A DNA stretch of 64,000 bases. Origin: a virus. Below, piece by piece: positions 19,946-57,466 of the stretch. How positions within the stretch are numbered: position 1 is the stretch's first letter; each line of letters begins with the position of its first letter. Below the pieces are notes generated by a model. That model was not told the origin of the DNA. It saw only the letters and a list, made by a program, of their open reading frames with translations, and made no database searches. The DNA lies in the IMG/VR virus record IMGVR_UViG_3300045988_143823. The stretch is one strand, 5' to 3'. Made by a program: the position numbers and the translations under genes.

Positions 19946-20623
19946 TTAATTACCGCAAGCTCCGCATCCACTAAATGCGCTATAAATATTACTTGCAGTA
20001 TAAGGACTACAAGTAATATATGCAGGAGTAGGATATGGGCGTAAGACATTTAATAAATCAGAAGTCTGATTCATGTTCTGAATTGTTAAGTTGGCAGACT
20101 GTAATTCAGTACGCAGACCTTCAATCTTATCGGTAGTTAAATAATCAAGAATACGCTGAACACCAGCATTTTGATTATTTAAAATATCACGAGTATTTAA
20201 GTTGCTAGTATTTACAATATCGCAAATATTTTTAGCATTCTCATATCTCACAGCGTCAATATTGCGATTAGTTGTGCAACAACATTCTTGCTGGGCGAAA
20301 CGATTATCGTTTAACCCTTTCATTACTTCATATTGGATATTACCCCAACGGTTAGTAGCATCACGTTCAAATGCGCTTACTTCGGTAAGGATCATATCTT
20401 GATTGCGGAACATATCTTGACGACCTAAGCCATCGGCCAATTCAGCGCGAGTTAAAGCGCCTTGAGTAGAACCGCCACCAAATAATCCGCCGCCCCCCCA
20501 AGCCAGTAGGAAGAATAAGAAGAATACCCAAGTCCAAGTGCCGCCAAAACTATTATTGTTATTGTCGCCTTGAGTCATTGCCATGATATCAGCAGGAGAT
20601 AATCCGTTTTCAGTGAGAGCCAT
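19946..20623 (-). CDS. membrane protein with a Gly-rich TM segment and a Cys-rich C-terminus (CCC...GCGACGN); no TAG
   Basis: ORF track entry; RBS GAAAGGAATG; one hydrophobic helix WTWVFFLFFLLAW. Confidence 0.45.
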   Translation of the reverse strand: MALTENGLSPADIMAMTQGDNNNNSFGGTWTWVFFLFFLLAWGGGGLFGGGSTQGALTRAELADGLGRQDMFRNQDMILTEVSAFERDATNRWGNIQYEVMKGLNDNRFAQQECCCTTNRNIDAVRYENAKNICDIVNTSNLNTRDILNNQNAGVQRILDYLTTDKIEGLRTELQSANLTIQNMNQTSDLLNVLRPYPTPAYITCSPYTASNIYSAFSGCGACGN

Positions 20624-20787
20624 AATTTTTACATTCCTTTCTAATTATATTGAGATTGGAAGATAGAATAAGCTTCATCAAAATTGATTCCCTTTTCTCG
20701 GCAGATATTGCGTGCAATTTGAATAATCTCTGCTTCTGATTTTCCTTAAGCCATTCTTTGTGCCTATTGGAATAAGGGATTAGAATT

Positions 20788-21220
20788 TAAATTCTGTAGC
20801 ATCGCCATTGGGTTCATCATTTGGTTTGGATTCATCTGCGTTAGCTCCTTTCAGTTTATTAATTTCATTAACTAGAATTGTGACTGTTTTCTCGAATTCT
20901 TCTTTGCTTACATAAGAAGCGTCAGATGGTGTTGCTTCTGGCTATGTTGTTGGAGGAGGAGTAGCTTTTAATTCATACATATTTAATGAAGCTGTTCCAT
21001 CTAAATTGATTTGTTTTGTGTAGATACGTCGATTTGCTAGGTCTGGAAAATAGAAAACCGACCCGTCAAAATCAATACCTGTTGCTCGGACTTCTTCAAG
21101 ACTAGAGACCGGCCGACCTTTTAATCCTTGAAGTTGTTGAGTATATTGGTTAGTAGGCATATAACGATTCAGGTAGGGATTTTGAGATTGAGGATAATAG
21201 TTATAACTGTTTGGATACAT
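20788..21220 (-). CDS. Q/N/Y/P-rich hypothetical protein (spore-coat-like composition), one in-frame TAG
   Basis: ORF 20942..21220 continues through a TAG to a TAA at 20788. Confidence 0.35.
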
Positions 21221-21879: not shown

Positions 21880-22254
21880 TTGATCATCTGTTTGTGCGGG
21901 AGCACTAAATTCAAAGAGTCCTTCGAGAAATTAGGAGCAATCCTATCTCTCGAAGGACATATTGTTTTATCTCCTAAAGTATTTGCTCATGCAGATAATA
22001 TTGTATTATCATCGGACACAGAAACTAGATTATTAAATTCTAGTAAAAATAAAATTAATATGGCTGATGCCGTTTATTTTATTACTGGAGAAAATGAATA
22101 TATTGGAACAACTGGCTATCAAGAAATTTGTTATGCTAGAAAATTAAATAAACCTATTACCTATTTTTCTAATAAAAAAATTGATGAATATGGTTATAAT
22201 GTTATCCGATAGCATGTGAATAACGTGATGGAGCAAACAAAAAATGGCGATTAA
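21880..22254 (+). CDS. nucleoside 2-deoxyribosyltransferase-like protein; TTG start; one in-frame TAG at 22210
   Basis: Motifs LCGSTKF and GTTGYQEICYARKLNKPI resemble the NDT family; if TAG is sense, the frame ends at a TAA inside the terminator stem. Confidence 0.3.
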
Positions 22255-22290
22255 GAAAAAATTTGTACTATTTTCTTAATCGCCATTTTT
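22241..22290. terminator. bidirectional hairpin terminator (aatggcgattaagaaaa...ttttcttaatcgccatt)
   Basis: 17-bp stem flanked by A- and T-runs between convergent genes. Confidence 0.65.
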
Positions 22291-22301
22291 TTATTTATAA
22301 A

Positions 22302-25300
22302 TTAAAATACTTTAATCCATACACGCCCATTAACTTTAACTTTTCCGGTCCCCCATTCTTCGTAATCAGGAACTGCTGAAATTGTACCAATCGCACAATA
22401 ACCTTTATTTTTATATTCTTCATCAGTCATAATAGAAACTGTTCCATTAGGACCAGAACATACTGGACGCCCAATATTCTTTTTAAATTCTTCATGAGAT
22501 TCATATGGATAAGCAAGAACACGTCCACTTACCGCTATTGGAGTTTTTGCCTATTCAGTTTCACCAATGGCAAAACCAAATGTATCAGATGTGATATTCG
22601 CGCCTGGCATCATGCGCTCAGTTGAAGTAATAAGAGTATCGTCACCCACTTCAATCACGCATTTACCTGATTCAATAGTATCTCCTTCACGGAATTCAGC
22701 ATAGTCATTCCATACTGCACCCCAAAGTTTATTTCCTCGTAAAACTCCAGTTCGAGTATTAATAGTCATTGTCATGCCAGCATTAGTTGAAGAACATCCA
22801 TCAACAAAACCAATACTCTACCAAGATTTAAAAATTAAATTGGCTTTTCCAGTAGTCCCTAAAATACTACCATCTGCATCTCCATTTCCAACATACATTC
22901 CATTATTTCCACCGGCTAATCTATGACAAATCATTGCTCCAGTATTAGTAGCAGTTGATGTAGTGGCGGGCAAAGAACAATTAATACTTCCATTCATAGT
23001 TCCGCCAGATAATTTTAAATAATTAGTATCAATCTATAAACCATTTATATCTCCCAAAGTTTTACTAGCACTATCAGCATTACCATGAAAATAAACATTA
23101 GTACCATCACTTTGAACTATCCACTATGTTTTAATACAATCCCATAATCCATATAACTATGCGCCACCATTATCGCGAGATAATTCGATATAACCAGTTG
23201 AGCCATTATTTACTCGGAACCCCTATCCAGCCTTATCAACAGCCAATTGACCAGTCATTGTATCTCCGGTTTTTTTGACATAATTAGAATCATGATTGTG
23301 TGAACTTGCTGCTGCTCCAATATCTGATAAAACTTGAGCTGCTGTGCGCTTATAAATCCAACCATAACCATCAATAGTAGCAAAATCTCCAGCTTTATTT
23401 CCAGCATTAGTAGTTTTTAACCACGTGCCTTCAATATAACCATTAATGCCAATACTAGAAGAACCTACTTTTAATCCAGTAGTATTAATTTGAGCAACTT
23501 CAGATACATTAGCATAAGCGCCATTATTTCCACCTGAATAGGTTTTAAATGAAATTTTATTTCCTTCATAATTTGTAGTTGTAGTAGCAGGTAAATAAAT
23601 TTCATTCACATTCATTTGATTGAAATGACCACGACTAGCTTTAAATGCGCAACCAATATTCTCCGCTGTATTTTCAATGTCTGGGCAATAATCAGGATGA
23701 GTAAATTTAGCTTCTCCTTGATTTTCAATACTACCATTTGTTTTTAATAATCCGGTCATTGTATCGCCAGATTTTTTTACATACAAACTATCATGGTTAT
23801 GATTTCCAGCTGCTACTCCTAATTCATTTAAAGTCCAACTTACATTAGAACTACCATCTACAGTTTTTTTAGCTGTTCCAATAGTAAATGTTCTTGGTGT
23901 TTTCCATTTATCAGCTGTGTCAGCATTACCTTTAAATTGAGTAGCTTTAACATTACCATTTACTTCTAATTTCTCTGTTGGCTAAGTAATTCCAATACCT
24001 ACATTACCAGAGCCATTTGCATTAGCATTTAATACTAATGGCTTAGTCTTATCACCATTTCCGTCGCCAACAGTAGAGACATATAAATCAACATAATCAG
24101 TACCATTAGGAACATTTACAGTGCTTGCGTTAAACTAAGCACTTCCACTATTAGTTTTTAAATCAAAACCTTTAGAGAAATGGGTTTTATCATTTAATGT
24201 TTTTTCTCCAGCAAACGTTTGAGTTCCAGTAGATACAACACCGGATTGACTAGCTGAAGCATCTCTTACTGTTTTTTTAGTTGCAGTAATTTTACCCTAA
24301 GTATCCTATGATACTGTATCAATAAATGAAATATCTTCATTAGACGCCGCAGGACTAGGTACTGCTGTTTGAATCTTTTTATATACCTTATCATGATTAT
24401 GATTGCCAAGCGCAACTGAAGTCGCTCCAGTACCAGTTGGTATAGTAAATTTTAATTCTCCAGCATTATTAACTGATTTAGCTGTATATGTTAATCCACT
24501 CCAACTACCAGAAGTATGATGGCTACTCTATTCCCAATTACCATTTTCAGCAAGGAATCTTTTAGTTGTATTAGTAGTATCAAATGTCGGGCCTTTAGTA
24601 ATTTTTCCGTCGGCATCTGAGTATACAATAGAATTAGTTTGTACTACACCAGCCTCATTTGTTAAATAACCATCACTACTGATATTGCCGTGAATATGAG
24701 GTTTTAATGCATATGAAGTAGAACTTCCTAAATCAACCCAATTTCCATCTATATCATATAAATATTCTTTTTTATCTCCAGTGCAAATAACAACATTACC
24801 AGCTACAGCTGTGACAGTAGTTCCATCAATAAGAGTTACTTGAGAACTGGTTGGCTTTGTAGCTACACGTCCAATATATACTAATGCACCAGAAATTTTT
24901 AAATCTGCCGCGTTAACATCGATTGTTCTAACCGCGGAGCCATCATAACTGCCTTTTGGAGTACCACCTACACTAATACTTAAGGCATGCTCAACTTTTC
25001 TTGCAATAGTAGCAGTCTTTGCATTACCATTAATATCTCTATCTAATGTTTGCCCAGTGACAATGGGTATTCCGTTTTTAAAATAAACTGGAGCGTTTTC
25101 GCTACCAGCATTGGTATTTAATTTATCAGCGCTTGTTGCAGGACCTCCCGCAGAAGAGGAACCTGCATAATCATGAGTATGGCCACTATTTGATTTACCG
25201 CTTAATAATGTATCAGTTTCTGTAATAGTATATACAGGTAATGGAATATCTTTATCTGTAGTCTAATTCGCAGTAAATGTTTCATTTACCTTGACTGGCA

Positions 25301-27485
25301 TTTTGCCAACCTTAATTGTTAATTTACCATTTCCAATAGTAGGAGCTGAAGGCAGAGCAATTGAAACCTCATCATTAATTGCTGTATTAACATGCCCCTA
25401 TTTATCAATAGTAATACGAGGAATATTAAGGGTTAATGTTTTGCCAAACTCACCAACTAATGATTTATTTGCATTACTTGTAGTAGTAATAGAAGAGACA
25501 TTATCTGCCATAGAAGGACCTTTATCGGCATGAGTGGCTTTATAGCTAACTGTATTTATGCCACCAGTTCCTTCTAATTTAATTAGCGCATCTTCTTTTG
25601 AATTAGAAGTATCAACATTGGCTGTAATCTAATGAGTGTGGCCAGTATCAGATTTACCATCTAATGCGGCTTGTAATTTATTAATATCAGCAATTTTATG
25701 TTTATGCCCTGTATCAGATTTACTATTTAATGTTTTTTGTAAATTTGTAATATCAGAAATTTCATGATTATGTAATTTAGCAGCCTTATCATCTAATGTT
25801 TTTTGTAAATTTGTAATATCAGAAATTTCATGATTATGTAATTTAGCAGCCTTATCATCTAATGTTTTTTGTAAATCTATAATATTAGAAATAGTATGAG
25901 TGTGACCAGTATTAGATTTATTATCTAATGCAGTTTGTAATCCATCAGTATCTGCAATTGTATGTTTATGATCAACATTTGATTTGTCGGCTAATTTTTC
26001 TGTTAATGTTTTCCAATTCCCAGAGCTATCTTTAAATTTAATATCAGATGTTAAATATAAATTTTGCCATGGATTTGATGTATTACCTAAATCTATTGAT
26101 ATATTTAAAGGCTCTTTAGAATTATTAATTGGTGATAATGATGCACCATTAAAATCTACTGCCTATTTATCATTAACTAGTTTAGTATGAGTATGATTTG
26201 CTACAGCTAAATCGTTAAATGATTTACCACTATCTTTAATAGTTCTACCTTTATTTCCGCTAAAAATAGCGATATGCCCATCAGTAGAACTTTCATCTGT
26301 ATTAATTACTGCTCCATCAATATTAGTTTGAACAATAGTCCAATCTCCTGCGCTATGAGTAGTTCCATCTTTAATACAAATAATTAAATCGCCAATTTCA
26401 CAAACTTCACCATTGCCAAGGTATTTACCATTATTACCACCTTTAATATCATAAACGCGATAAGTTTCACCCGCGTTATGTTTGGCTGGTAATTCATGAA
26501 TAGTAGCAGCTGCATCTCCACCGATAGTACCTTTAAATACCATAGCATCATTAGTGGCTAATAAATTATTTAATTTCTTATCAATATCTGATTTTATATA
26601 AAAATTATTTAATGACCAATCATGTACTGCGTCACCCCGTGCAGCAGCATATTGGTATAAATTGTTTCCATAATTTTCCCCGGCTTCACCAGCTTGTAAA
26701 ATTACATGTCGACTAGCTTTATAAGAATTATCACCATCATAGTTAATATATAAATTATCTTTTTCACAAGCCCCGTCATCTGTTGGCTCTGATATACCAT
26801 AAATACCACGAGTCACTAAACCCGCATTTTGAGCAGTTCCACCAAATACTGCCCCCTACTATAATGTAAGTTGATTAGAAATTATAGTATTTGTTTTATT
26901 AGTACCAAGGATATTAGCAGCATCGCCTTTAAAAATATGAGTACCACCTATTACAACATTTCCTTCAAATGATGCGCTACCATTCATATTTAAAAGAATA
27001 TTATTGTTTATATTAATACCCCAATTATTTACTAATGATTCTTCACCAGTATTTATAATTTTAATACCAGTGCCAGCTCCTTTATTATCAATAATTAGAG
27101 CCGAGCCTTCATCATTATTTTCAATTAAAACTTCATCTTTACTTCCTGTTTCAACATTAGGAATTACTAATGTCCCATCTTTATAACCAATACTACCATA
27201 TTTTAATTCAATTAAATTTTTAGTATTGTCAGCTACTTTGAATGCTAAAATAGGATAAGTTTCTGTATCTTCAATTTTAGTAGCCTTAATCCAATCAGTG
27301 CTTAAAGCACTAAGAGGAATACGATTATCTCCAATTACAGCTGGAGATGCATTAGTACCATCACCATCAATATCAATGTAAAATTTACCATCATCTGATG
27401 TAAAATATGCAAAACCTTCTTTTGCATATGGTACATTTGTCATTAAATTTTTTGACAAACCTTTACTTATTTTAAATAATGCCAT
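22302..27485 (-). CDS. giant tail-fibre/receptor-binding protein (about 1727 codons) with roughly 20-30 in-frame TAG codons
   Basis: RBS GAAGGGAG then ATG at 27485. ORFs 26859, 26163, 23223 and 22551 are all in one frame. Every fragment boundary checked in this gene is TAG. The protein carries repeated SGDTMTG tail-fibre motifs, an HxH 22-aa repeat array and a C-terminal domain paralogous to gene 28457..29326. It ends at a TAA at 22302. Confidence 0.6.
25600..25990 (-). repeat. tandem array of at least 6 copies of a 66-nt repeat encoding a 22-aa HxH unit (AKLHNHEISDITNLQKTLDDKA and variants)
   Basis: Two identical 66-nt copies at 25741 and 25807 plus diverged flanking copies, in-frame in the fibre gene; resembles phage tail-fibre His-x-His repeats. 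Confidence 0.7.
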
Positions 27486-27645
27486 TAATTTGTAAACTCC
27501 CTTCTCTGAAAAAAAGTTTATAAAAATATTTCTATTAATTTGTAAAAATTTGAATTATATTATTATTTTAATTAGGCCATTTATTTATAATATTAAAATT
27601 TAAATTTTTACAAATTAATAGAAAACGAGTGAAAGGAGATTAATT

Positions 27646-28416
27646 ATGGCAGAAAGAAAAGTTGTAGATTTAAATAATTTAAAAACTTTTTATATTAAAT
27701 TAAAAGATATTTTTGTTCCTAAATTAGAAGGAAAAAATTATCTCACTAGTTCTACTGGAGATGAAGGATATACTAAAGATGAAATAGATATTAAAATAAA
27801 TAATATATCACCATCTGGGCCATCTGATAATATTAATCTTAATTGGCAAAATTAGTTTGAAGATGTTGTTTATAATTCTACATCAGCAGATTTTGATAAT
27901 TATACCTATTATTATTTAGATAACGGGATATATAAAATTGTTACTTATGATTAGATTATGACTTGGGTAAACACTCCAAAAGATACGACATAGCCAGCTT
28001 CTGTTGATAATAATATTTTAGAAGATCAAAAATTTTATTTTAATAAAATTTTAAGCCATACTACTCCAGCTTATGGTATTGGAAATACTATTAGTACTTA
28101 TCTTACTGGAGCTGGGGCTCAACAAGTTACTAATATCGCGCAAAAGACTCATTATACTTCATATAATCGTGTAAATAATCAAATTGTTAATAAATCATAT
28201 CCAGCATATTTTTCTTATTATAAAAAAGACACAACAGGAAATTTTATTAAAATAACTTAGACGGAAGCTAAAACATTAGGTAATACTAATAAAATAGAGA
28301 TTTTTGTAAAAAATTTAACTCCAGAAAATATTGAAAACTTAATTAAATCATCTGATATTCAAACAATTATTGACAACCGAATTAAAACATTAGTTAAATC
28401 AGATTCATTAAAATAA
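27646..28416 (+). CDS. hypothetical protein (about 256 aa), 4 in-frame TAG codons, on the opposite strand within the fibre cluster
   Basis: RBS GAAAGGAGATTAATT then ATG; the frame continues through 4 TAGs to a TAA at 28414; followed by a terminator. Confidence 0.45.
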
Positions 28417-28420
28417 AATA

Positions 28421-28459
28421 AAAAGGCAGATAACATAATTTGTTATCTGCCTTTTTTTA
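28421..28459. terminator. bidirectional hairpin terminator (aaggcagataaca...tgttatctgcctt)
   Basis: 13-bp stem plus a T-run between convergent genes. Confidence 0.65.
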
Positions 28460-29326
28460 TTTTATTTTAATCCAAATTCGATTATTGATTTGAATTTTAT
28501 CAGTACCCCATTCTTTATACTCAGGAATTTCACTTACATAACCAATTATAGCATCAGGCCATTCTTTGATTTCTTCACGAGTCATTAATGATATAGTTCC
28601 ATTAGGTCCTGAGCAAACCGCCGCGCCAGCAGTAAATTTATATCTATCTTCATAAGGATAAGCTAATACTCGTCCACATACCGCAATAGGTGTTTGTGCT
28701 TTATTAGTTTCACCAATAGAAAAACCAAATGTATCTGAAATAATATTGCTACCCAGCTGTAAACGCTAAGTTGATAATTCTAAGTCTCCATACCCAGTTT
28801 CAACTACACACCGGCCAGGCTCTTTAATTAACGATTCACGATATTCAGCATAATCATTAAATACAGCACCACGAACTTTTTTAGCTACTAAAACTCCATT
28901 ATCACCGTTTTTTGTTTTACTACCATCGCCTAATACTAAATTCTATGATCGATCAAATCCTTTAATTAATACGCTCTATTTCAAAATATTATTTTCTTTA
29001 ATATTAAACATACCTGGAGTTAAATTATCATTTTGAGTTAAATTAGTTTCGGGGGAAAAACTTAATTCACCGGTAATAATATACTGCTTATTTAATACAT
29101 CATCATCAGTCGGATCTTCAATAATTAAGTAGGTTTTATTACCATCTGGAACAATTTTTACACTTCTTACATTCTAGATTTGTAATCGCGTACCATCTTT
29201 ATTCGGACGAAGACGAATGCCAGTTTTTTTACCTGCAACTGGATAAGCTTTTATATTAGCAAGCATTTTATTTAATGCTTCATTTTGTAAAATTATTGTA
29301 GACTCATAAGGTGAATTACTACTCAT
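28457..29326 (-). CDS. fibre-tip/receptor-binding-like protein (about 289 aa) paralogous to the C-terminus of the giant fibre; 4 in-frame TAG codons
   Basis: RBS AAAGGAGAA; shares GAVFNDYAEYRE, SDTFGFSIGET, VCSGPNGT and YPYE motifs with residues encoded at 22302-22800. Confidence 0.5.
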
Positions 29327-29404
29327 TTTTCGTGTTCTCCTTTCTCTCATAATTTTATATCTATTTATTATAGAAAATTATAATAAATCATTATTTATAT
29401 TTAC

Positions 29405-29445
29405 CCAAAAAAATAAAGGGAAGACTAATTTAAAGTCTTCCCTTT
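29405..29445. terminator. hairpin terminator (aaagggaagact...agtcttcccttt)
   Basis: 12-bp stem plus a T-run. Confidence 0.6.
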
Positions 29446-29514
29446 ATTTTTATTTTATTAAAAATTATCAATCCACTCTAAAGCAAATGTACCTTTCTAA
29501 TGTGCTTGTTCTAA

Positions 29515-30066
29515 ATCATGAATTGCCTAAATAAATGCTTTATCAAAAACAAATTCTTCCTGAGAAATATTATCTAAATCCCAATTTTGACCTTGCTCTA
29601 CAATTGCTTCAGCAACTAATGTATTTAATTCATACATTAAATGTCCTGCAGCATTAAGACTAAAGAATTTAATAGCAAATTTTACAGTACCAGCATATTT
29701 AGTGGCCGCATTCTGAATCACCCATGGCATAATAATTTTTTGATTTACATTATCAGTAGTAATATCCATATAAGGCACTACATAATAATAGGCTTCACCT
29801 TTTGCATTTTGAAATTGAATAATGCAACAAGTGTTAGATAAATCCATGCCATCAAAATATCGATCAAATGTAAAGTATAAAGTCTCAGCCGAATGGTCCT
29901 GAGAGACGATAATGAAGGACTTAGGCACTTTTATTTTACGTTCATTTAAATCGATAGGGATTAACTCTTCTTTAGGTGGAGTTGGAAGGAGAATGGCTTT
30001 GGAAGTTCGCATCTGTTTGTCGATAGACCAAAGCTTATTCTCATAATCTTGATAATTAGTAATCAT
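29515..30066 (-). CDS. hypothetical structural protein (183 aa), paralog of the N-terminal domain of gene 30096..32030; one in-frame TAG
   Basis: RBS AAAGGAGAATGAATAATC; MITNYQDY...QDHSAETLYFTFDRYFDGMDL parallels MITKYKDS...GDHLAETVFFSIDRYFDYMDL. Confidence 0.45.
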
Positions 30067-30095
30067 GATTATTCATTCTCCTTTCTCCTAATTTA

Positions 30096-32030
30096 TTACT
30101 TAATATTAATATAGAATGCATCACTATTTAGTGAATAGGCACTTCCATTATATTTATTAGTTACACGAATAAAATAATTACCTTCTTGATTACCAACCAT
30201 TGAAGAGGTAATTGTAGTATGTTTCCCACCTTCAATATCAGAAGAATTTAGTTCACAAACAAAAATGGGATTAGTGTCATCACTTTCTTCACCAGGTAAT
30301 TGGTATAGACTACAAATTACTTTATCACTATATACTTTTTCATTAATAGCGGTTAAAACATATTTAACATCAAATGATTTTTGAGTGTACTTATCTGTAA
30401 CTCCATCAGTAGATGCGTTTAGGTTAATCCAATATTGTCCACCTTGTTTACTTAAACCTAAAACAATACTATTCTCTTCAATTTTAGAAGCTAAAGGAGA
30501 AACGATATATTCTTTAGATTTAGTTTCGTCTAAAGTAGTTTGATTATTTAAAAATGTTTTAACTCCAACAATATATTTACCTTCTTCGCTAACAACAAAA
30601 CTATTATTTTCAGTAGAACGAATCCACTTTGAAGTATTAATAGGAGTTGTATTCCCATCTTTATACCAAGCATATTGAACTAAAGCCTTAGGTTCAACTC
30701 CTACAGCAGGAGCTTCATAAGCATCTGTATTATCATATCCAGAAGCAGTAGCAGTTAGAGTAACTTCATTGCCAGTTAAAAATGCCACAGAATCAGCTAC
30801 AGATAAATCAATATCATAACCTTCATCTTTTAAATCACTATTATTAGAAGTAATTGTAATTTCAGCAGGAGCATCGGGTTCAGGGCAAATTACCACTGGA
30901 GTATGCTCAAGAACACCTTGACCAATTTTCTTATTTTCTTTATCAAAAATAATTCCTTGAGCCTGAATATAATATTCACCGACACCACTTACTTCAATAG
31001 TGGCATAACGAGCATATAATTCACTCTTGTTTGGAATAGCAATCTCTAGATCATTCCAAGTTCTAACGTCTTCGCTAGAAGCAACCTTATAAACGCTGCC
31101 CTCTTTTATATAATAAGTGCCAGTAGGGTCTAAAGGAATACGTTTATCATTTTCATCTTTTTTAGAAACTAAAACATATTCATCTACTGGGTCATCTTCT
31201 CCAGCAGGAGTAGAATACTTAATGTCCGCCGCACCTGCTTGTGCGCGAGCATATAATTTTACAGGTACAGAAGATAATGTTTGAGAGTCGCCATTATCTA
31301 CCGCATTACCAGCTAAATTTATAGTCTATAAAGCTACTGTAGCGTCGGGGTCAGTGACCAAGCCATTGGTAAGCCATTTTAAATCATCAACTTTAGCTTC
31401 GCCTTCACCAAAACTGCTGTTTTGAAGCATATTTAGAATATCATCATTAACATTAATAACTGTAGGATTAATTAAAACTAATCCTTCTTTAATATTAATT
31501 GTTGAGATTAAAGTATTTAAACTATAGCTAATAACATTATCACGTTCAGCATAAAATTCAACTGCAAAACTTAAAGTACCACTTTTACCAGTTAAATCTT
31601 TTGCCACAGGCCAACCAAAAATAATTTTTCCAGGTTCAGCATCAACGCTCTTAGAGAAATTAACAGATTGACCAGAAACATCACCAATTTTCCAATTGAT
31701 ACGAATATTACAATTGTTTAAATCCATATAATCAAAATATCTATCAATACTAAAGAAAACAGTTTCAGCTAAATGATCTCCTTGAACTGATAAACCATTA
31801 GCAGTAAAATCAGAAGGAATTGTAATTTTGCGGCTATTAGCATCAATTTCAAACAAAGGCTCATCCAAAGGAAGTCTTAAAAACTTTTTATCTAACTCAC
31901 CAATTTCTTGTATATATCCGAAAAAGCTCTCAAGGTTATCAATTTGAATTTTACCATTACTAGCTTTGTCAATATCTTCATACAGTTTTTGATAAGCTAA
32001 TTTAACAGAGTCTTTATACTTTGTAATCAT
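30096..32030 (-). CDS. tail-associated structural protein (about 644 aa), one in-frame TAG at 31326
   Basis: RBS GAAAGGAAGG; ORFs 31326..32030 and 30096..30896 are one frame, with no TAA/TGA found across the gap on manual translation. Confidence 0.5.
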
Positions 32031-32142: not shown

Positions 32143-32358
32143 TTAAACTTCTTTCCACTAATCTAATTCGTCTTCTGGAATAACTACATTTTGAACAAAG
32201 TCTTTTCCATTTTTAGTAAGACGTTTATTATTATCAGCAAGTAATTGAAGTTTTCTAACATAATATATATCTTCAAGATGAATGGGAGAAAGAATCGTTC
32301 CATTAGTACCTAAATACTCATACATTACAATTTTAGTCATTTTCTTTTCTCCTTTCAT
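32143..32358 (-). CDS. small hypothetical protein, one in-frame TAG
   Basis: ATG overlaps the upstream gene's stop (ATGA); continues 4 codons past the TAG at 32158. Confidence 0.35.
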
Positions 32359-35300
32359 GAATTAATATAATTAATTTTATTAAATCCTGAGAATAGTGAA
32401 TTAGCAGCGTCTTGTTTCAAAGTAGTATACCAATCAATTGATTCTATAGTAATTGCAGACCAAGAGGCATAGTTAATAAAGGCTGGATCGCCAGATACGA
32501 TACGCAATTTAGATTTTTCTTCTGGTGTACCAATAATAATCTTTTTAATACCTAATGTTCTATCACTATTTAAATCACTATAGCTAGAGAAAGTAAAACC
32601 ACCATTATCAATCTTCTAAACATTAGAACCAATAGTTAAGGTATCATTATCTCCAGAGAATGTATTTTGGAATGCGCTTTGATTGATTACTGCAATTGTA
32701 CCACCAATACTTACATTAGAGAATTTTGGATATACTACACGAGATTGACAACCAGGCATTTTAAATGCATAGTCTCCAATCAATCTCAAACCTTCAGGGA
32801 ATTCTACCCACACTAAGTTCATTGAATGAGAGAAAGCGGCACCACAGAAAAATCTAATATTACATTTTTCAACATCATTTTCTTTATATTTTTCAAAGAA
32901 TACATGAGTTAAATTTTCACCATAGCAAACTGGAACATAAGTAACAGAATTTAAAGTAGAAGATTTTCCTGGGAATCCTGGATTACGAGGACTGTCAATA
33001 TCTGTATCATAAATATCTCCAGGTGAACCAAATGTTGCATCAACAGCAATAACTTTTTTAGATACTCCATTTACATCAAAGAAGGCAGGTACTGTAATTT
33101 TACCTTTAACTTTTTTAGTCAAGGCTAAAGTTACACCATCTGGGATATTCCATTTTGTTTCTCCCGCCCAGTCAATATAATAAGTATCTGCTGGAGTGAG
33201 GCCAGATGTCTATTCAGAAACTGCAAAATACTCAGGATGAATATCTTCATATACGTTAATAGGATTATTATCAAATACTGCATAAAATGTAGTATCTTCA
33301 GTAATCATATACTCTTCTAATTTAATAGCAGAGGAAGCAGTTGCAGAACGACTATATCCCAAGAATTTATAAGTTTGGTCTAATGGTAAATCACTATCAT
33401 CTTTCCAAGGAATAATAGTAGACATTACAGCGTAATTACCATGAGGAATTTTTTTCTCTTCAATTAATGTATTATCTTTATAATAATATTTAACACTCCA
33501 TTTGTGAATAGGACAAATAGCATAGAATGTATAAGTGTGAATATTATTATCAAGAGTTTGTTCACTCCATTTATTAATACTTTTATCAATATTAATAAGA
33601 ATATCAGCACTAGCAGAATTAGTTAATGCCCAACCATAAAAATCATGATTTGGTTTCTTCTCACTAACATCGCCAAATGCATCAATAGGATCAGCAAACC
33701 AAGTTTCGCCTTCTTTTAAAGTCATAGAACCAATTAATTGATAGCGACCATCATTACCTTTATCTTCATCCATAATTACAAATCTAGCAGTATATCCCTG
33801 TTCAACATTCGCACAGAAGATTGTTAAATCAGGATAAGCAGCTTGGATAGTATTACGTAATTCAGATTCTTTAATAACTTCTGTATTATTAATATAAATA
33901 ATACCAGAAATATCAGGAATATTTTTACCAGAATTTTTAATCCATTTCTTATCACTAATAAATTCTTTAAACATAGCTAAATCAGTAATTTGATTTATTT
34001 TATCTTCTGGGATTGTTTCATCCTTACGATAAATTTCACCATTTTCAACTTTAATAGTCCATGCATCAAAATTAGTATAAGTATAAGGTTCTAGTCCATA
34101 ATGTCCATTATCTATATAATAAGTAGTAGATGGATTACGTTCATCATCAACAGTCATCTAAACATATGGACACCAATTTACATTGGTCATAGAAATTTGA
34201 GAAGTATTGGTCTATTGACTACGAATAGCATAATATTGTTTTAATAATTTATAACTATCATAGCCTAAGCCACCACCAACAATATTTAGAGAAGCAATTA
34301 CTGTGTCTCCCTTATCTCCAGTTGAAGTTTTATCAAAGAAACCTTGGAGATATAGACCAGGATTGGCATGTAAATTACCTTCATCATCACGGGTAGGATT
34401 CTAGTATTCATCTTCAGTGATTATATTCTTTAACAAATTAGCTTCAACTAATTCAAGATTTGTAATACTAGTAGGTAAATATACAGTATTTAATGCAACG
34501 CCTTTAGCAAACTAAACGTTAATTAAATTAGAACCAGTAGCACGGAAATTCTCTAATTTTTCACAACTAGTTAAATCTAATATAGGAGAAGCAGCATTAA
34601 ACTGAATATTACTCATATTTACTTCTTTTAATAAAGGCATACCTTTACTATCAGAAGAACTAGCAGGAATACTGAATTGGTTAACATTATCATTATGCCA
34701 ACGCTCTCCATTTGTATCTAAACCATCATATCCTAATTTCAAACTAGTTAATTTAGTAGCATCACCAGAAATTTCAAACTCTTGCCAATATAGATTACTC
34801 ATATCGCCAAGGTCTTTCATTTGATTAATACCATAAACATATAGTAATTGTTCAGGATAATTTTCACTCTTACGGACACCATTTTCAATAGAGTCAATAT
34901 TAAATCTTAATGCATGAACACCATCATATTTACGAGAAGGATAGGCTTCATTATCATCACCAAGAGTAACATAAGAAGAATGGGCTGGAGTTAATGTCAT
35001 CCAATATTCAGCATCAAATAAATGATTTTTAGTTAAAGTGCTTTCATCCTTGAAATAAGGATCGCTAGCAGTTTCAATCCACTTATCTGAAGTCTTATTT
35101 TTATTATTCGCAGCAACACGACCACGGATGCGGTTCGCACCACCACGTTGATAGTTACCTTCATTTAACCAAGAATCAATATACTCTAAACGGTTAGATA
35201 GGAATTGTTGACGAGATAGACTTCTATTTCCTTGTAAAGCATAGAAATAAGTACCATTAGTATCAACAGTATATACGCCAGTCGTATCACTACTAATATG

Positions 35301-38300
35301 TCCAGTAGTACCATCTAAGTAAGAAGCATCATTAGTAATAGTAATATATTTATAATACTCATCTAAGTTAACCGCTACTAATGGACGAGTGCCCAAGTCA
35401 GCTAAGTTATTTGTTGTATTATAATCAGTTAAATAATATGATTCAATACGATCAACAGTTTTTAAAGGTGGCTGTTTTAAATTAGAACCAAATACACTAG
35501 TAGTAATACCGCGTAAATGTCTGTATTTAGGAATAATTAAACCAGTTTTAAAATATTTATAGAAGTTATTCCATAAAACACTATCAGAAGTAGAATAGTT
35601 ACCATCTTCAGTAGCATCAACATTGTATTCAAATGAAGGAATACCAGTATTATTAATACCTAATTGAGTATCAATATCATAGAAAATTGGATACCAAATA
35701 TAGTCTCCGCCTTTCTTTTGAGGACCCCAAGAAGCCATCATACAGTTTTTACCACGAGAGTCATAACATTCAAAAATTTCTGTCATAACGAAATATGTAG
35801 CCATATATTCTTTATCGAAGTGGTCACTTAATTCATAAGTAAATTTATCACCACGATACTCTTGTGTGTCATATTTATAAGAGCGATCACCATAAATAAT
35901 AGTGGTTCCAATATAATATTTATTTGGTTCATAAGTTTCAGCAGTCACATTAGCCTTAGTTACTGCTTTACCACATTTAGCGTTTCCATCATAATTATAA
36001 TATGTTTTACTTGCATCAAATGCTTCATCTTTACATAAAACAACTAATCTATCAGCCTTTGTATCTAACTCTTCATCGCTATAAGATTCCAAAGTATAAT
36101 AACGTTTATCGGGATTAAATATATCAGTGCTATAACAAGGAACATAGGTAATATTATTATTTTTATCAATTTCACCAGTATATAATTTAGTTTTAATAGC
36201 ACTAAATAATACTGTTCCAACATAAGCAACGATATATTCATGACTATTTTCTTGATTAGGATTATAGTCAGGATTCTTTTTATAATAAGTAGTGCCTTCT
36301 ATATATTCTTTAGCTAAGGTATAAATCTATTCAGAAGTTGATGGATTAGTTGTCATAATATAATGTTTATTACTATCAAATAATTCTTCACCAACATCAC
36401 AGATTTTATAAGTACCATTTGATACAACTTTTTCAGTACAAGTACTCCAAACCCAAGCTACAGCGCGTTCCCAATTAGAATAATCTTTCAATAAATGCTG
36501 AGCGCGATTTTCTTGATTTAATGTAATATCATCCTTAGAAAATGTTAATGTTGGGTCTTTCTTACATTCTCCATCAGGAGCCATAATATAATCAAGAATA
36601 TCTTCGTCATTATGATAACGATATTCAAATGAGTCTGCTACCACAGGGGCAGATTGAACTGCATTTAATACACGAGAACCATCAGCATTAAATACATCAA
36701 ATTTCAAATCTTTGCGGTCTTGTGGGTCACGATATGAGCAGAAGGTACGGCTATTGTTTTCAAACTCCCAACATTCTGCTACTTTAGGCATACTCTTAGT
36801 ACCATCGCCTATAAATTTAGCTTTTGGATCTTTACCAGTAGTGCTGTCAAGTGCGAATCCATATACTTCATCAGAACCTTTATCTAAAAGCATATTGTAT
36901 ATACCAATAAATTGATAAATAGGCTCTGTGCTACCATCGACTGGTTTCTTTTTATGGAATGCAAGTACACGGAACCCTCGTACAGAAGTACGATAATCAT
37001 CAGTATTTTCAACCTTAAAATCGCTGTATCCAGGTTTCATAATATACCATTTATTATATTTAGGATTACTTGAATCAGCTACTTTTAATTTTGAATAAAC
37101 AGTTGGATTTTCAGCCATTAATTTTTGATATAATGCGTATGGACCTAAATCAAAATCTTCTTTGCTGGTAATCACAATATTATCTTCTAAGACTTCATTA
37201 CTTGCTGTTTTCGGATTACCCTTATGATTATAATAAGTATAAGTAGTTCCAGGAACATACTCAGTTGTTTCAGTCTCAACAGTTTTGTCAGGGTCTAAAA
37301 CCTAAAATGCTTTTGCATTATTATAATCGTCTAATGGATGTTTAGAATAAGCATTTTTAACCATATTTGCAAATCCCATATTATAAGTTCCAGAAGATTC
37401 CATGTAGTCAATCTTCATAGTAAATTTATGAGTTCCGCAAGTATAATTATTAAAATACCAATATTTTTGACGAGTTTTTTCATTGCCACGTTTTACGTAA
37501 GCAGTATTTTCAATATAAAAAGTATTAGGTTTATAAGGATTAGTTTCGCTAAATGTAACTTCCTTTTCACCATTTTCATCTTCATAATATTTAATTTTTA
37601 ATTGGCCAGTAGCAGAATCAACTAGAGGACCTAATGTTGTACTTAAAATATAAGGCTTCTAAGTAGAACCTAATACATCAGCATTATACTATTCTCTAAA
37701 TGGCCCACGGTTTAAGAAAATGTTAACACGCTTTTCGCCATCTACCGCATCGTTATTTTTAGTTTTAACTTTATAATTTCTACGAGGATAGAATTCAGAT
37801 GAAGTTCCTTGAACGCTCATTGATGCGCTATCACTAATAAATGAAGGACAATGATATTTATAATAAGTTTCAACAGCTTTTTGTTTTTCAGCTGCTGTCG
37901 CACCATCACCAAATAATTTATCAGCTTTAGCTAATTCTTCCAATTTACCTTTATTATAATACATTTCAAGTGGAGTATTAACAAATTCAACTCCAACATT
38001 TAATTTAACCTTTTTAGAATAAGGAAGTTTATTTTCACTATCTTCTAATTTAGTAGTATCAAAAATAATATAAGGCATTAATGGGGCATCAGGATGTTCA
38101 TTATTATACTTTATCATATTAGTATAGCTAAATTGGAATTCATCAATAGCAGTATTTTCTTCTGCTAATTTATTTTGATCGTAAATATTTACATTCTCAA
38201 AATCAGCAGCATAATTCATGACAATATCATTAACGTTTAAATCAGTGCGATATACTCGGACCTTATATAAATCAATATCACAGTAATCACTGTTAAATTC

Positions 38301-40517
38301 AATTTTATCATTTTCTACAACAAATCCATTTTCTTGAGTGTTTCTAACAACACTAGTTAGTACACCATTTAAATAAATATAAATTAAATTTTGAATTTTT
38401 TCTTTACTATATTTACATACAACAGATAAAGTAATAATTTTATTTTCTACATAAGATACGTTTACGGTATCAGTACCATTAGAGAAAAACGCATCCTGTG
38501 GTCCTAAACATAAACCAGTAACGGCTTTAGTATTACCAGAAGAGTAACTACCTATAACATTACTTAAATTAATTTGCTTAGCAATATGACTAAATTCTAA
38601 ATCATCATATTCCATTCTACGTTTATTACCATTTTTATCGACAAATTCAACTTCATAAGTTTTTAAATACCAAGCTAAAAATGCATCATAGTTGGTGTAT
38701 GTAGTATTAAATTTGCCAGTTTCTTCATCATAAAATGCTTTATATAATTTTTCATCATTTTTATAACGAGTAATAGTACGAATTAAATTTGAATAATCCT
38801 AAACATTACGAATTTTGAAAGTTAATTCAATACTATGAGACTGCTCAGTAGCTTGAGAGCCACTAGGATTTGAAAATACAGTGCGACCAATAGGAATAGA
38901 TAATTTAGCACCATTACTAATACGTAAACAAGTTTTATTATCTTCATCCGTAGTCCAACCATTATTATACCAATTAAAATTAGTAAAAGTCGCCGCACAA
39001 GGTTCAGCCCCTAGAGCTGTAGAAGAATTTACTAAAGTAGTGCGTTTAGCCAACGTTTCAGAATTAGAACGTCCACTACCTACTGTGTTTAATAAATAAG
39101 TTAAGAAGCCTTGCTTCTAAATACCAAAGTCTGTTCTTGTTGGGTCATTTACAACACGAATTTCAATTTTACGGGTAGTCTCACGCGCTCCATCACCACA
39201 AGTAATAGTGTAGTGATTAATTACATTTAATTCAGGATTAGCAATTTCAAAAATAGCAAATTTCTTAGAATCTGTAATTGTTTGAGGAGAATAAGAAAGT
39301 TCAATATTATTACGTTTAAAATGCACTACTGGGTTTTCAGCCTATGGGTCAAAAACACGGAAAGGAATTTGAATAGTGTCATAATTATAATATTCATCTT
39401 TATAGTCTCCCAACCAAATAATTGGAGGAGCTTGAGGGTCTAAACCATCATAAACAGCTACTTCAAAAATTAAAGGGTCAACTTCAATTCCTTTTTTGCC
39501 ATTAATTGATTGGAATAAACGAATCCAAACTTTATGATAACCATTAACTACAGGGATATATTGTGAAACATTAACAGTCTATAATGTAGCCGAATTAGCG
39601 GCTAAAGATACACTTAAAAATGGTTCATCTTCATTGTCAAAATAATATTCAACAATTTTATCCATAGCGCCATTAACATTACATTGTAATACTAATTTAC
39701 TAGGCTCGAAATAACTTAAATTAGAAAAACTACTTGATTCTTGTAATTCTAACTTAGAAGTTTTAAATGTTACTAAACGAGTAACTGTGCTTGGATGATT
39801 GGTTTGACTAGCCACTAATACTAATCTTGAAGAAGCATCGTCTTTAGCCAATTTACCAAATTCAAAAGCATATTTCTCGCCATCAGGCACTTGGAATGTT
39901 CCTGAATTATATTGGTTGTAATTGGTGCCATCATCAGTATATTCTAACTTCCAATTAATTGTTAGAATAGAGTCATAAGAATTACCCTTTTTATTTTTAG
40001 CTGATGTGGCGACAAATGTTATTTCTTGAGAACGTCCATTAATTAAGTTAACAGTAGGTAATGAGTCTACAGTTAATTCAATATCAGAAGCTAATGAGCT
40101 AGGGTCATCTCCTCCCCCTCCACCAGCAACAGTTAAACGACGACATAGCACATTTTGAAATGCTCGCTGAACTTTTATTACACGATAAAAACAATTATCA
40201 CCTAAATTGATAATTAAATCATCTTCTTCGGGATACTCTCCGCCTTCAATAGCTCCGATTGGAATATTGATTTCATCTTCTAGTTTTTCAGCATCAGTCG
40301 GAGTATAATTGGCATAATAAATACCAGAATTACTTCCTGAGCCACCACCACTACCGCTTCCTAAAAGCTTTCGTGATACCATTGTACCATCAGCTTGAGT
40401 ATAGTCTATGAAAATTTTACCAGTATCAACTGCAAAATAAACATATCCATCATTAAAACCCATTAAATCTAATTTAGCTTCAGTACCACGAACAGGGATG
40501 AATCGTTTATTGCTCAT
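32355..40517 (-). CDS. giant virion/tail protein (about 2720 codons) with about 14 in-frame TAG codons; N-terminal fibre-anchor-like motif
   Basis: RBS AAAGGAGATACTTGC then ATG at 40517. Eight ORF-track fragments (39579, 39117, 38799, 37689, 36327, 34512, 33210, 32616) are all in one frame. The gaps at 36093-36326, 37176-37688, 38616-39578 and 32355-32615 were manually translated: they contain only TAG and no TAA/TGA. It ends at a TGA at 32355. Confidence 0.5.
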
Positions 40518-42329: not shown

Positions 42330-43268
42330 TTACTCTGAGAGTTCACCCCAAATAATACTCTCATAAACTTTATTAATTTCGTTGACAATATTAGTAGTAT
42401 CTCCAGCCGCATAAGCTTTACCGAGGTCATTTAATGAGCCAACAGTAGAATTAAATACCTCAAGCGAAGTATATTCTTCAACAAGTTTCTTTTCAACAGC
42501 TTGTAACTGAGAAACTTTTGCATATCCAGTTAAATCAGCATTACCAAATGTACCTAATTTTTCTGGTTTTGAGTTGATAAGCATATATTCATCATAAGAA
42601 TTGTTATCATCTCCACTACTATTAGGCACTAAGTAAACAACATTTTCTTTATTATTTTCCGCTGAAGTAATATCTTCTAAGCTGCCGACAGGTTTATAGG
42701 TTAAATGATTCGCATTAGCGATTTCATTTTTAATAACAGTATTAAAATTATCAACTTGATTTTGTAGATTAACAATTTTAGTACTAATAGTATGAAAATC
42801 TTCTTCGGGCTTTTCCCACTCTAACTTACCAGCAGCTCCTTTTTTCAAATAAGAGCCACTTTCTGCAGTATCAAATCCAATGAGATTTAATTCAGGATTT
42901 GACCCTTCAACAGTTTTAAATTCAAATGTATTAGCATTAACATTAATCTCTAATTGACTAGCTATTAAACTAGCAACATCAGCCAATGATTTACTTTCCC
43001 ATTTACCGCTGTCATTTTTAACTAAAAACGCACCAGCATCAGTTACAGTTTCTAAAACATCACTAATATCAGATAACTTAGTAATATTAGTCTCCGAGCC
43101 AGAGCCACTAATTAATTTATCACCTAAATATAAATATCCATTTTTCTTATCTGCAGATTCATAAATAAAATATAAAGTATTAGGATCTATTAGTTTTCGC
43201 GCCTTTAATGAATTATAAGCAGTTATTGTACCGCGCTAAAACTTTACATAATTAACATTATTTGGCAT
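42330..43268 (-). CDS. tail-fibre-like protein (312 aa), one in-frame TAG
   Basis: RBS GGAAAGGAGATTAAT then ATG at 43268; N-terminal YVKF...TLYFIYESADKKNGYLYLG motif; ORF-track entry 42330..42986 is the distal part. Confidence 0.5.
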
Positions 43269-57440: not shown

Positions 57441-57466
57441 AGTCATTCTCCTTTACCACATAATTA

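What the first reader, a model, noticed from the sequence alone, without database searches (positions are those of the whole stretch)
22302..32030. Modular receptor-binding cassette: a paralogous C-terminal tip domain and paralogous N-terminal domains
The last about 170 residues of the giant fibre (22302-22800) and the separate gene 28457..29326 share clear sequence blocks (GAVxNDYAEY/FRE, SDTFGF[AS]IGET, VCSGPNGT, YPYE). Gene 29515..30066 is a paralog of the N-terminal 180 aa of gene 30096..32030. The block also holds a plus-strand gene of unknown function at 27646..28416, isolated between a divergent promoter region and a bidirectional terminator. Duplicated tip modules next to terminators look like a host-range diversification or switching locus.
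Basis: seen in the sequence. Interest (0 to 1): 0.6.

Follow-up and report, generated by a model that had tools for sequence, protein, structure and literature searches.

The report
Shared tail-fibre folding (chaperone) module
Two tail-fibre genes of an uncultivated ~200 kb gut phage end in the same 133-residue module. That module is most likely a self-cleaving folding chaperone like the one in phage phi29, not a receptor-binding tip, and the real host-range variation lies in the swappable middle of the giant fibre.

Summary
The fibre C-terminus and gene 28457-29326 share 56% identity over 147 aa (E 2e-52). Gene 29458-30066 matches the N-terminus of gene 30096-32030 (35% over 138 aa, E 1e-19).

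The second pair shares a fold like the baseplate-anchor domain of TP901-1 BppU and 80alpha FibU/FibL.

I found no switch. The copies are direct repeats at about 67% nucleotide identity. There are no flanking inverted repeats, no recombinase or reverse transcriptase nearby, and no rearranged variants.

The fibre gene itself is a mosaic hot spot. It runs 730-1727 aa across otherwise collinear strains (97-99% identical where measured), while neighbouring genes keep a near-constant length.

This is an ordinary kind of system and a useful annotation.

The parts
22302..27485 (-). Giant tail-fibre gene (1727 aa, 17 in-frame TAG codons). It has a conserved N-terminal ~394 aa, a swappable middle, a strain-group-specific pre-chaperone region and a terminal chaperone module.
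   Evidence: ORF with TAG read as sense. Pfam PF12789 phage tail repeat, E 4e-37. Length is 730-1727 aa in related strains.
22305..22706 (-). Fibre copy of the phi29-gp12-like intramolecular chaperone module (D1594-F1727). The predicted scissile bond is N1593|D1594 (codons 22707-22709 | 22704-22706), with E1597 at 22695-22697.
   Evidence: HMM hit E 1.6e-72. The W-N-D-Y-A-E-F motif is at aa 1592, with 134 residues after the Asn in all 11 fibre variants. Codons checked.
23323..26304 (-). Exchangeable central cassette of the fibre (aa ~394-1387). In 97-99% identical strains it is replaced by an unrelated ~300-aa cassette. One variant ends at 23109 instead.
   Evidence: blastn breakpoints at 26304 and at 23323 or 23109. 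Protein comparison.
25626..26021 (-). Tandem 66-nt (22-aa) phage-tail repeats inside the fibre.
   Evidence: the repeat finder family D1. Pfam PTR. Assembly L001 has a scaffold gap here.
22239..22291 (.). Perfect 21-nt-arm hairpin just downstream of the fibre stop codon. Likely a terminator.
   Evidence: Inverted repeat I9, 100% complementary.
27529..27624 (.). 38-nt inverted repeat (92% complementary, 20-nt spacer) in the divergent intergenic region between the fibre gene and the plus-strand gene. Probably paired divergent promoter or operator elements.
   Evidence: I1. The arm sequence occurs only here in the window. Conserved in strains, and two assemblies have N runs at this point.
27646..28416 (+). 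Conserved 256-aa gene of unknown function on the opposite strand.
   Evidence: ORF with a strong AAAGGAG ribosome-binding site. Present in all related contigs at 246-256 aa. No hit in Pfam, PHROGs, NCBIfam, PDB or the phage records.
28420..28456 (.). Bidirectional intrinsic terminator between the convergent genes 27646-28416(+) and 28457-29326(-).
   Evidence: 16-bp stem with T runs on both strands. I7.
28457..29326 (-). Short fibre or spike gene (289 aa). It has a variable N-terminal 156 aa followed by the chaperone module.
   Evidence: ORF and ribosome-binding site. 745 homologues, the top 120 at 88-100% identity and 289 aa in nearly all. The N-terminal part is 86% conserved against 93.5% for the module.
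28460..28855 (-). Second copy of the intramolecular chaperone module (D158-K289). The predicted scissile bond is N157|D158 (codons 28856-28858 | 28853-28855).
29409..29451 (.). Terminator hairpin between the 202-aa gene and the 289-aa gene.
   Evidence: 18-bp stem plus T run. I21. Sequence read.
29458..30066 (-). 202-aa protein. It has a BppU-N-like beta-sandwich core (aa ~33-157) and a C-terminal helix.
31482..31883 (-). Paralogous anchor domain (aa 50-183) at the N-terminus of the 644-aa protein encoded by 30096-32030.
   Evidence: BLASTP E 1.7e-19 against the 202-aa protein. phrog_25888, E 8e-7. Alignment A2.

Best explanation
The block is part of the host-adsorption module of an uncultivated ~200 kb, TAG-recoded gut phage that probably infects Gram-positive Clostridia.

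The shared C-terminal module. The ~133-residue module shared by the giant fibre and the 289-aa protein is a divergent relative of the phi29 gp12 C-terminal intramolecular chaperone (MEROPS G2, Pfam Peptidase_G2). I infer that it nucleates trimerisation and folding of the upstream beta-structured fibre. It then cuts itself off at the invariant Asn|Asp bond (N1593|D1594 in the fibre, N157|D158 in the short protein), with the Glu three residues downstream taking the role of gp12 E695. If so, the module is a shared assembly device, and the mature virion would carry a 1593-aa fibre and a 157-aa short fibre or spike.

The second paralog pair. The 202-aa protein and the N-terminus of the 644-aa protein share a beta-sandwich fold like the N-terminal baseplate-anchoring domain of TP901-1 BppU and 80alpha FibU/FibL. 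They are probably two baseplate-docked adaptor or fibre proteins that use the same kind of docking site.

Where host range varies. Diversification does not come from switching between the two modules. It comes from homologous recombination that swaps the middle and pre-chaperone parts of the fibre gene. The exchanges occur between the conserved N-terminal anchor and the conserved chaperone module, with junctions at short repeated linker motifs.

Shown: the homology, the fold match, the motif invariance, the terminal position, the mosaicism and its breakpoints.
Inferred: the cleavage, the chaperone activity, the baseplate docking and the host.
For: (1) Distribution. An HMMER scan of 1.84 billion representatives found 2083 clusters (E<=1e-3). 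The module lies at the extreme C-terminus of proteins 165-2454 aa long and is 52-75% identical to the query in nearly all listed hits. In 148 of 150 representatives, 130-134 residues follow the motif Asn.

(2) Motif. N-D-Y-A-E-x-R is invariant in 151/151 sequences.

(4) Sequence. gp12 '...TW-S691-D692-F-A-E695-YFES...ISETAGFVLGES' aligns with 'AVW-N-D-Y-A-E-YRES...ISDTFGFSIGET' (hhalign E 6.8e-5, 38% identity over 52 columns). The gp12 segment itself is PF11962, E 1e-95.

(5) Literature. [quoted passage not shown]

(6) Conservation pattern. Across 11 fibre variants the module is 70-97% identical, while the middle is non-homologous. Similarity resumes 5-10 residues before the W-N-D motif. In orthologues of the 289-aa protein the N-terminal part is more variable than the module.

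(7) Mosaicism. The fibre is 730, 781, 850, 918, 1050, 1118, 1410 or 1727 aa, while neighbouring genes stay at 2717-2720, 65, 644, 202, 289 and 246-256 aa. Breakpoints are sharp, at 26304 and at 23323 or 23109, in strains that are 97-99% identical. L005 equals L002 minus 132 aa between two GNA motifs.

(9) Host. Every gene in the block is preceded by an AAAGGAG ribosome-binding site. Related modules in species genomes occur only in Clostridia/Firmicutes MAGs.
Against: - Neither copy scores against Pfam PF11962 even at E<=10, and nothing hits in PHROGs or NCBIfam.
- The hhalign probability is only 63%, over 52 columns. Homology therefore rests on fold plus motif.
- The residue before the scissile bond is Asn, not the Ser of gp12, so the chemistry may differ.
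- Cleavage is not demonstrated. Some C-terminal auto-chaperone domains, such as that of the P22 tailspike, stay in the mature protein (PMC3357383).
- Only monomer models were made.
- The N-terminal 156 aa of the short protein modelled poorly (pLDDT below 60).
- The BppU-like assignment rests on a mean-pLDDT-70 model with no sequence support (hhalign E 0.2).
- The positions of the gp12 cleavage site and catalytic Glu come from my memory of Xiang et al. 2009. That paper was not available to read.
Confidence: 0.72

Rival explanations
1. The shared C-terminal module is a retained distal knob that binds the receptor. The phage would then carry two adhesins with related specificities.
For: The module is at the distal end of both proteins. 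Some auto-chaperone-like C-terminal domains are not cleaved (P22 tailspike, PMC3357383). Cleavage was not tested here.
Against: The module is the most conserved part of the fibre. It is 52-75% identical across more than 2000 clusters attached to unrelated upstream parts, whereas receptor-binding tips are normally the most variable part. Its closest solved structure is a domain that is removed from the mature protein. The cleavage-site motif is invariant.
Confidence: 0.15
2. The two modules are substrates of a programmed switch that alternates the fibre's C-terminus. Candidates are site-specific inversion, a shufflon, a diversity-generating retroelement or gene conversion.
For: There are two homologous 3' modules 6.15 kb apart, with an oppositely oriented gene and an inverted repeat between them.
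Against: The copies are direct repeats with about 67% identity over 449 nt and no long identical tracts. No inverted repeat of 45 nt or more exists in the 64 kb window. The 38-nt inverted repeat is a local palindrome in one intergenic region, not a flanking pair. No recombinase or reverse transcriptase appears among the called genes with Pfam hits in the flanks examined. About 20 related contigs all show the same order and orientation. Each copy is closer to copies in other proteins than to its neighbour, so there is no ongoing conversion.
Confidence: 0.03
3. The 289-aa protein is not a virion component. It would be a trans-acting assembly factor whose module co-assembles with the fibre's module, like a tail-fibre assembly protein.
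For: It is small, sits next to the fibre gene, has its own terminator-bounded transcription unit and carries the same module.
Against: The fibre already has its own module in cis. The two modules are only 56% identical. The region upstream of the module in the 289-aa protein (aa ~80-143) also occurs just before the module in long fibres of 651-1246 aa. It is also the more variable part, as expected for an exposed adhesin.
Confidence: 0.08

Closest known systems
Bacillus phage phi29 gp12 (pre-neck appendage) C-terminal auto-chaperone; PDB 3GQH; Pfam PF11962 Peptidase_G2; MEROPS family G2
   Different: The window's copies are not detected by PF11962. They have Asn instead of Ser before the Asp. 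They are shorter (132-134 aa after the Asn, against 163 after S691 in gp12). They are attached to long fibres and a short protein of a ~200 kb recoded phage, not to a podovirus tailspike. Cleavage is untested.
Peptidase S74 intramolecular chaperones (K1F endosialidase, T5 pb1, GA-1 appendage)
   Same: They follow the same logic. A conserved C-terminal module drives trimer folding of variable fibres or spikes, is then auto-proteolytically released, and acts as an exchangeable unit (PMC4690869).
TP901-1 BppU (ORF48) N-terminal domain, and Staphylococcus phage 80alpha FibU (gp68) / FibL (gp62)
   Different: There is no sequence similarity (Pfam gives no hit; hhalign E 0.2). The model has only moderate confidence. 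The location in the baseplate is inferred.
Mosaic distal tail-fibre loci of T-even phages (gp37/gp38), recombining at short conserved motifs. Cited from my own knowledge of Tetart et al. 1998.
   Same: Fibre segments are exchanged between conserved flanks, with junctions at short repeated motifs. Here these are GNA..A..K and HNHD..YVKK.GDTMTG.
   Different: The 3' homology arm here is an in-cis chaperone module, not a separate chaperone or adhesin gene.
Invertible tail-fibre segments (Mu G segment/Gin, P1 C segment/Cin)
   Same: There are two alternative-looking fibre 3' modules in one locus.
   Different: There are no inverted orientation, no crossover sites, no invertase and no orientation variants.

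Membership tests
phi29 gp12-type intramolecular chaperone (Peptidase_G2, PF11962) | Sequence scores above the Pfam gathering threshold for PF11962 | tested here: not met
   Neither copy hits at E<=10, while the gp12 C-terminus hits at 1.3e-95 in the same call.
phi29 gp12-type intramolecular chaperone (Peptidase_G2, PF11962) | Fold of the gp12 C-terminal fragment | tested here: met
phi29 gp12-type intramolecular chaperone (Peptidase_G2, PF11962) | Cleavage-site motif X|D-x-x-E at the start of the domain (S691|D692...E695 in gp12) | tested here: met
   N|D-Y-A-E aligns with S|D-F-A-E. It is invariant in 151/151 sequences. The preceding residue is Asn, not Ser.
phi29 gp12-type intramolecular chaperone (Peptidase_G2, PF11962) | Located at the extreme C-terminus of an adsorption protein | tested here: met
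   All listed representatives end with the module. 130-134 residues follow the Asn in 148/150.
phi29 gp12-type intramolecular chaperone (Peptidase_G2, PF11962) | Autocatalytic cleavage and release after trimer folding, with folding failure when the domain is absent | not testable with these tools
   Needs expression and mass spectrometry.
Peptidase S74 intramolecular chaperone (endosialidase type) | S74 sequence profile and fold, with a Ser-Lys dyad | tested here: not met
BppU N-terminal baseplate-anchor domain | Sequence match to the BppU_N profile or to TP901-1 ORF48 | tested here: not met
   Pfam gives no hit. hhalign of A3 against ORF48 gives E 0.2.
BppU N-terminal baseplate-anchor domain | Fold similarity to the ORF48 N-domain and to 80alpha FibU/FibL | tested here: met
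BppU N-terminal baseplate-anchor domain | Docks on the baseplate and holds receptor-binding proteins | not testable with these tools
   Needs cryo-EM or interaction data.
Invertase-driven tail-fibre switch (Gin/Cin type) | Inverted crossover sites flanking the alternative segments, plus an adjacent invertase gene | tested here: not met
   The copies are direct repeats. No inverted repeats of 45 nt or more exist in the window. No recombinase domain appears in the called neighbours.
Invertase-driven tail-fibre switch (Gin/Cin type) | Both orientations seen among related genomes | tested here: not met
   About 20 contigs share one gene order and orientation.
Diversity-generating retroelement | Near-identical template and variable repeat pair, plus a reverse transcriptase | tested here: not met
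   The only long repeat pair is the 75%-identical module pair. No reverse transcriptase appears in the flanks with Pfam calls. The rest of the ~200 kb genome was not examined.

The most novel reading that the evidence does not exclude
The N-D-Y-A-E-x-R module may define a very large, so far uncurated clade of self-processing fibre chaperones in gut Firmicutes phages. It spans at least 2000 clusters at 50% identity and is invisible to Pfam, PHROGs, NCBIfam and 50,697 deposited phage genomes. The invariant Asn at the scissile bond could mean a cleavage chemistry different from phi29 gp12, such as Asn cyclisation to a succinimide. The module may also serve as the universal 3' recombination arm that lets these phages shuffle fibre cassettes.
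Probability: 0.3. Interest if true: 0.5.

Novelty: new member of a known kind. Interest (0 to 1): 0.3.

Why it matters
The result corrects the annotation of two adsorption genes in a widespread, uncultivated, TAG-recoded gut phage. What looks like a duplicated receptor tip is probably a disposable folding module. Host-range predictions and engineering should therefore target the region upstream of the N|D bond and the swappable fibre middle.

It also flags a large protein-domain clade that curated libraries miss. A profile built from it would annotate thousands of metagenomic tail fibres and mark their mature C-termini.

The strain comparison gives a clear natural example of fibre cassette exchange between fixed anchor and chaperone arms.

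Tried and rejected
- Standard-code ORF calling fragments every gene in the block. Reading TAG as sense resolves this.
- Pfam, PHROGs and NCBIfam scans of the four smaller proteins and of the isolated modules gave nothing useful, apart from PTR repeats in the fibre and phrog_25888 (unknown function) for the anchor pair.
- Sequence searches of the PDB found nothing, whether with a single sequence or with a profile.
- megablast and tblastn against 50,697 phage records gave no match for the locus, the 289-aa protein or the plus-strand gene.
- A homologue search with the fibre N-terminus returned mostly truncated gene calls. It was not usable for a length census.
- hhalign of the anchor domain against TP901-1 ORF48 showed no sequence signal.
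- A late-promoter motif suggested by a repeat upstream of two genes was not significant: 4 matches, and 7 of 100 shuffles reached that number.
- The Mtd_N idea for the N-termini of four fibre-like proteins got no Pfam support.
- Xiang et al. 2009 could not be read.
- The afdb50 fold library was unavailable.
Full report
**1. Genetic code and gene models**

With the standard bacterial code the region is a string of short ORFs. Allowing TAG to be read through gives six ORFs:
- 22302-27485(-), 1727 aa, 17 in-frame TAGs
- 27646-28416(+), 256 aa
- 28457-29326(-), 289 aa
- 29458-30066(-), 202 aa
- 30096-32030(-), 644 aa
- 32355-40517(-), 2720 aa

Public gene calls on related contigs give the same lengths. 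Each start codon is preceded by an AAAGGAG-type ribosome-binding site.

The 202-aa gene ends at the TAA at 29458-29460, not at 29515. Its C-terminal LEWIDNF is conserved in homologues down to 61% identity.

**2. The two paralogies are real**

- Fibre aa 1580-1726 against the 289-aa protein aa 144-288: 56.5% identity over 147 aa, E 2e-52.
- The 202-aa protein aa 26-159 against the 644-aa protein aa 50-183: 35.5% identity over 138 aa, E 1.7e-19.
- At DNA level the first pair are direct repeats about 6150 nt apart. They are 72-78% identical in short blocks and 67% identical over 449 nt.
- An HMM of the module finds only these two copies in the six-frame translation of the window.

**3. What the shared C-terminal module is**

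Curated libraries do not recognise it. Pfam, PHROGs, NCBIfam, PDB sequences and tblastn against 50,697 phage records all gave nothing.

A full HMMER scan of 1.84 billion representative proteins tells a different story.
- It found 2083 clusters with E<=1e-3 and 1539 with E<=1e-30.
- In every listed hit that carries it, the module is the last ~145 residues, in proteins of 208 to 2454 aa.
- It is 52-75% identical to the query in nearly all listed hits.
- Across 151 sequences, N-D-Y-A-E-x-R is invariant.
- In 148 of 150 representatives, exactly 130-134 residues follow the Asn.

An AlphaFold2 model of the 289-aa protein is confident only for this module (pLDDT above 90 for aa 157-289).
- Foldseek against BFVD returns metagenomic proteins annotated as 'preneck appendage protein'. 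It also returns tail fibres of Campylobacter and Agrobacterium phages.

I fetched phi29 gp12 and compared the sequences.
- gp12 reads ...GGNTW-S691-D692-F-A-E695-Y-F-E-S...IGVISETAGFVLGES...
- The window's copies read ...GAV(W/F)-N-D-Y-A-E-(F/Y)-R-E-(G/S)...N(I/T)(I/T)SDTFGF(A/S)IGET...
- hhalign of the family alignment against the gp12 C-terminus gives E 6.8e-5, 38% identity over 52 columns and probability 63%.
- The gp12 segment is Pfam PF11962, 'Peptidase_G2, IMC autoproteolytic cleavage domain', at E 1e-95. The window's copies do not score even at E<=10.

The literature states that the gp12 C-terminal domain is an auto-chaperone. It is cleaved off after folding, and without it the chains aggregate (PMC3357383, PMC4690869). 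That cleavage falls between S691 and D692, with E695 involved, is from my memory of Xiang et al. 2009. I could not read that paper.

I therefore read the module as a divergent gp12-type intramolecular chaperone. The predicted scissile bonds are N1593|D1594 in the fibre and N157|D158 in the short protein (codons verified).

**4. Conservation pattern fits a chaperone, not a receptor tip**

Contigs carrying the same or a closely similar 289-aa protein come from human and pig gut assemblies of up to ~200 kb. Gene order and orientation are identical in all of them. Neighbouring genes keep their lengths (2717-2720, 65, 644, 202, 289 and 246-256 aa).

The fibre does not. It is 1727, 1410, 1118, 1050, 918, 850, 781 or 730 aa.

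In strains 97-99% identical at nucleotide level, window 26304-23323 (or -23109) is replaced by an unrelated cassette of about 300 aa, with sharp breakpoints.

Across 11 variants:
- The N-terminal ~150-400 aa is shared.
- Internal modules are shuffled.
- The terminal module is 70-97% identical.
- Similarity to the window's fibre resumes 5-10 residues before the W-N-D motif.

Junctions coincide with short repeated motifs. One is GNA(D/T)(S/T)A..K, with three copies (family D11). Another is HNHD..YVKK.GDTMTG. L005 is L002 minus 132 aa between two GNA motifs.

Among 118 orthologues of the 289-aa protein, aa 1-143 average 86% identity to the window copy and aa 157-289 average 93.5%. Residues ~80-143 of that protein also precede the module in long fibres of 651-1246 aa.

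The variable parts, which are candidates for receptor contact, therefore lie upstream of the N|D bond.

**5. No switch**

- The two modules are in direct orientation and too diverged for frequent recombination.
- The whole window has no inverted repeat of 45 nt or more and no near-identical repeat pair.
- The 38-nt inverted repeat at 27529-27624 is a local palindrome in the divergent intergenic region. It is unique in the window and conserved among strains. It most simply represents symmetric promoter or operator elements.
- Called genes in the flanks have no recombinase or reverse-transcriptase domains. The plus-strand half of the window is a replication module with DnaB, RecJ, PIF1, Pol III alpha, NrdD/G and dUTPase.
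- All 149 representative modules compared are closer to the 289-aa protein's module than the fibre's module is. In turn, 102 of 149 are closer to the fibre's module than the 289-aa protein's module is. The pair is not a recent local duplication or conversion.

**6. The second pair**

The next hit scores 7.9, and generic Ig/FN3 domains follow. There is no sequence-level support.

By analogy with 80alpha, where two proteins share this N-domain, the 202-aa and 644-aa proteins are probably two baseplate-docked adaptors or fibres. The order 65 aa / ~614-644 aa / ~199-202 aa / ~289-360 aa is kept in relatives whose short protein is only 54-64% identical.

**7. The plus-strand gene**

The plus-strand gene 27646-28416 is conserved and has a good ribosome-binding site. 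It lies between the palindromic intergenic region and a bidirectional terminator. It has no detectable relatives in any library searched.

**8. Host and context**

Relatives of the module in species-level genomes are all in Clostridia/Firmicutes MAGs. The closest solved relatives (phi29, TP901-1, 80alpha) are from phages of Gram-positive hosts. Strong Shine-Dalgarno sites fit this too. Stop-codon recoding in gut phages is documented (bioRxiv 10.1101/2021.08.26.457843; PMC9523058).

**9. Verdict**

The locus is a modular adsorption cassette of a known kind. It combines an in-cis, probably self-cleaving chaperone module on two fibre proteins, two BppU-like anchored proteins, and a mosaic fibre gene that diversifies by cassette exchange.

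Novelty is limited to membership in a large, uncurated, divergent branch of the gp12-type chaperone family, which has Asn at the scissile bond. Interest is modest, at 0.3.

Noticed in passing
window 1-64000, mainly the minus-strand genes from 22302 to 63920: TAG is used as a sense codon. Reading only TAA and TGA as stops nearly doubles the summed length of long ORFs. Structural genes carry many in-frame TAGs (17 in the fibre, 41 in ORF 50172-57446), while most replication genes carry none or very few. No tRNA gene is present in the window.
   Followed up: partly
window 27529-27566 / 27587-27624: A 38-nt inverted repeat (92% complementary) sits in the divergent intergenic region between the fibre gene and the plus-strand gene. 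It is unique in the window and conserved in strains. Two public assemblies have runs of N exactly here.
   Followed up: partly
window 23061-23090, 23907-23936, 25005-25034, and about 23300-23340: Short repeated coding motifs in the fibre (GNA(D/T)(S/T)A..K and HNHD..YVKK.GDTMTG) coincide with the junctions of cassette exchange and deletion among strains.
   Followed up: partly
window 27400-27485, 40430-40517, 42200-42302, 43180-43268 (N-termini of four minus-strand genes): The fibre, the 2720-aa protein, the 547-aa protein and the 312-aa protein begin with a similar-looking motif (F/V..RG...L....G..YF..D.G.LYI). BLAST is only marginal (E 0.07-0.2) and Pfam Mtd_N is not hit. Two distant homologues of the fibre N-terminus do carry PF18454. 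This may be a shared virion-attachment domain.
   Followed up: partly
window 32355-40517: A 2720-aa protein with no Pfam hit on record keeps a constant length (2717-2720 aa) in all strains. It lies directly upstream of the anchor-domain genes.
   Followed up: no
window about 20180-21180: A segment of about 1 kb is present in the window but absent from the 97%-identical contig L002. It covers small genes between the fibre and the replication module.
   Followed up: no
window 25626-26021; L001 13572-13671: Five to six tandem 66-nt (22-aa) phage-tail repeats lie in the fibre. One public scaffold has a 100-N gap inside them, so repeat copy number may be mis-assembled or variable.
   Followed up: no
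L020-L028 (genome contigs): Relatives of the chaperone module in species-representative genomes occur only in Clostridia/Firmicutes MAGs (Intestinibacter, Faecalibacterium, Acutalibacteraceae, Erysipelotrichaceae, Eubacteriales). One lies in a 300-kb contig and may be a prophage. This hints at the host range of the family.
   Followed up: no
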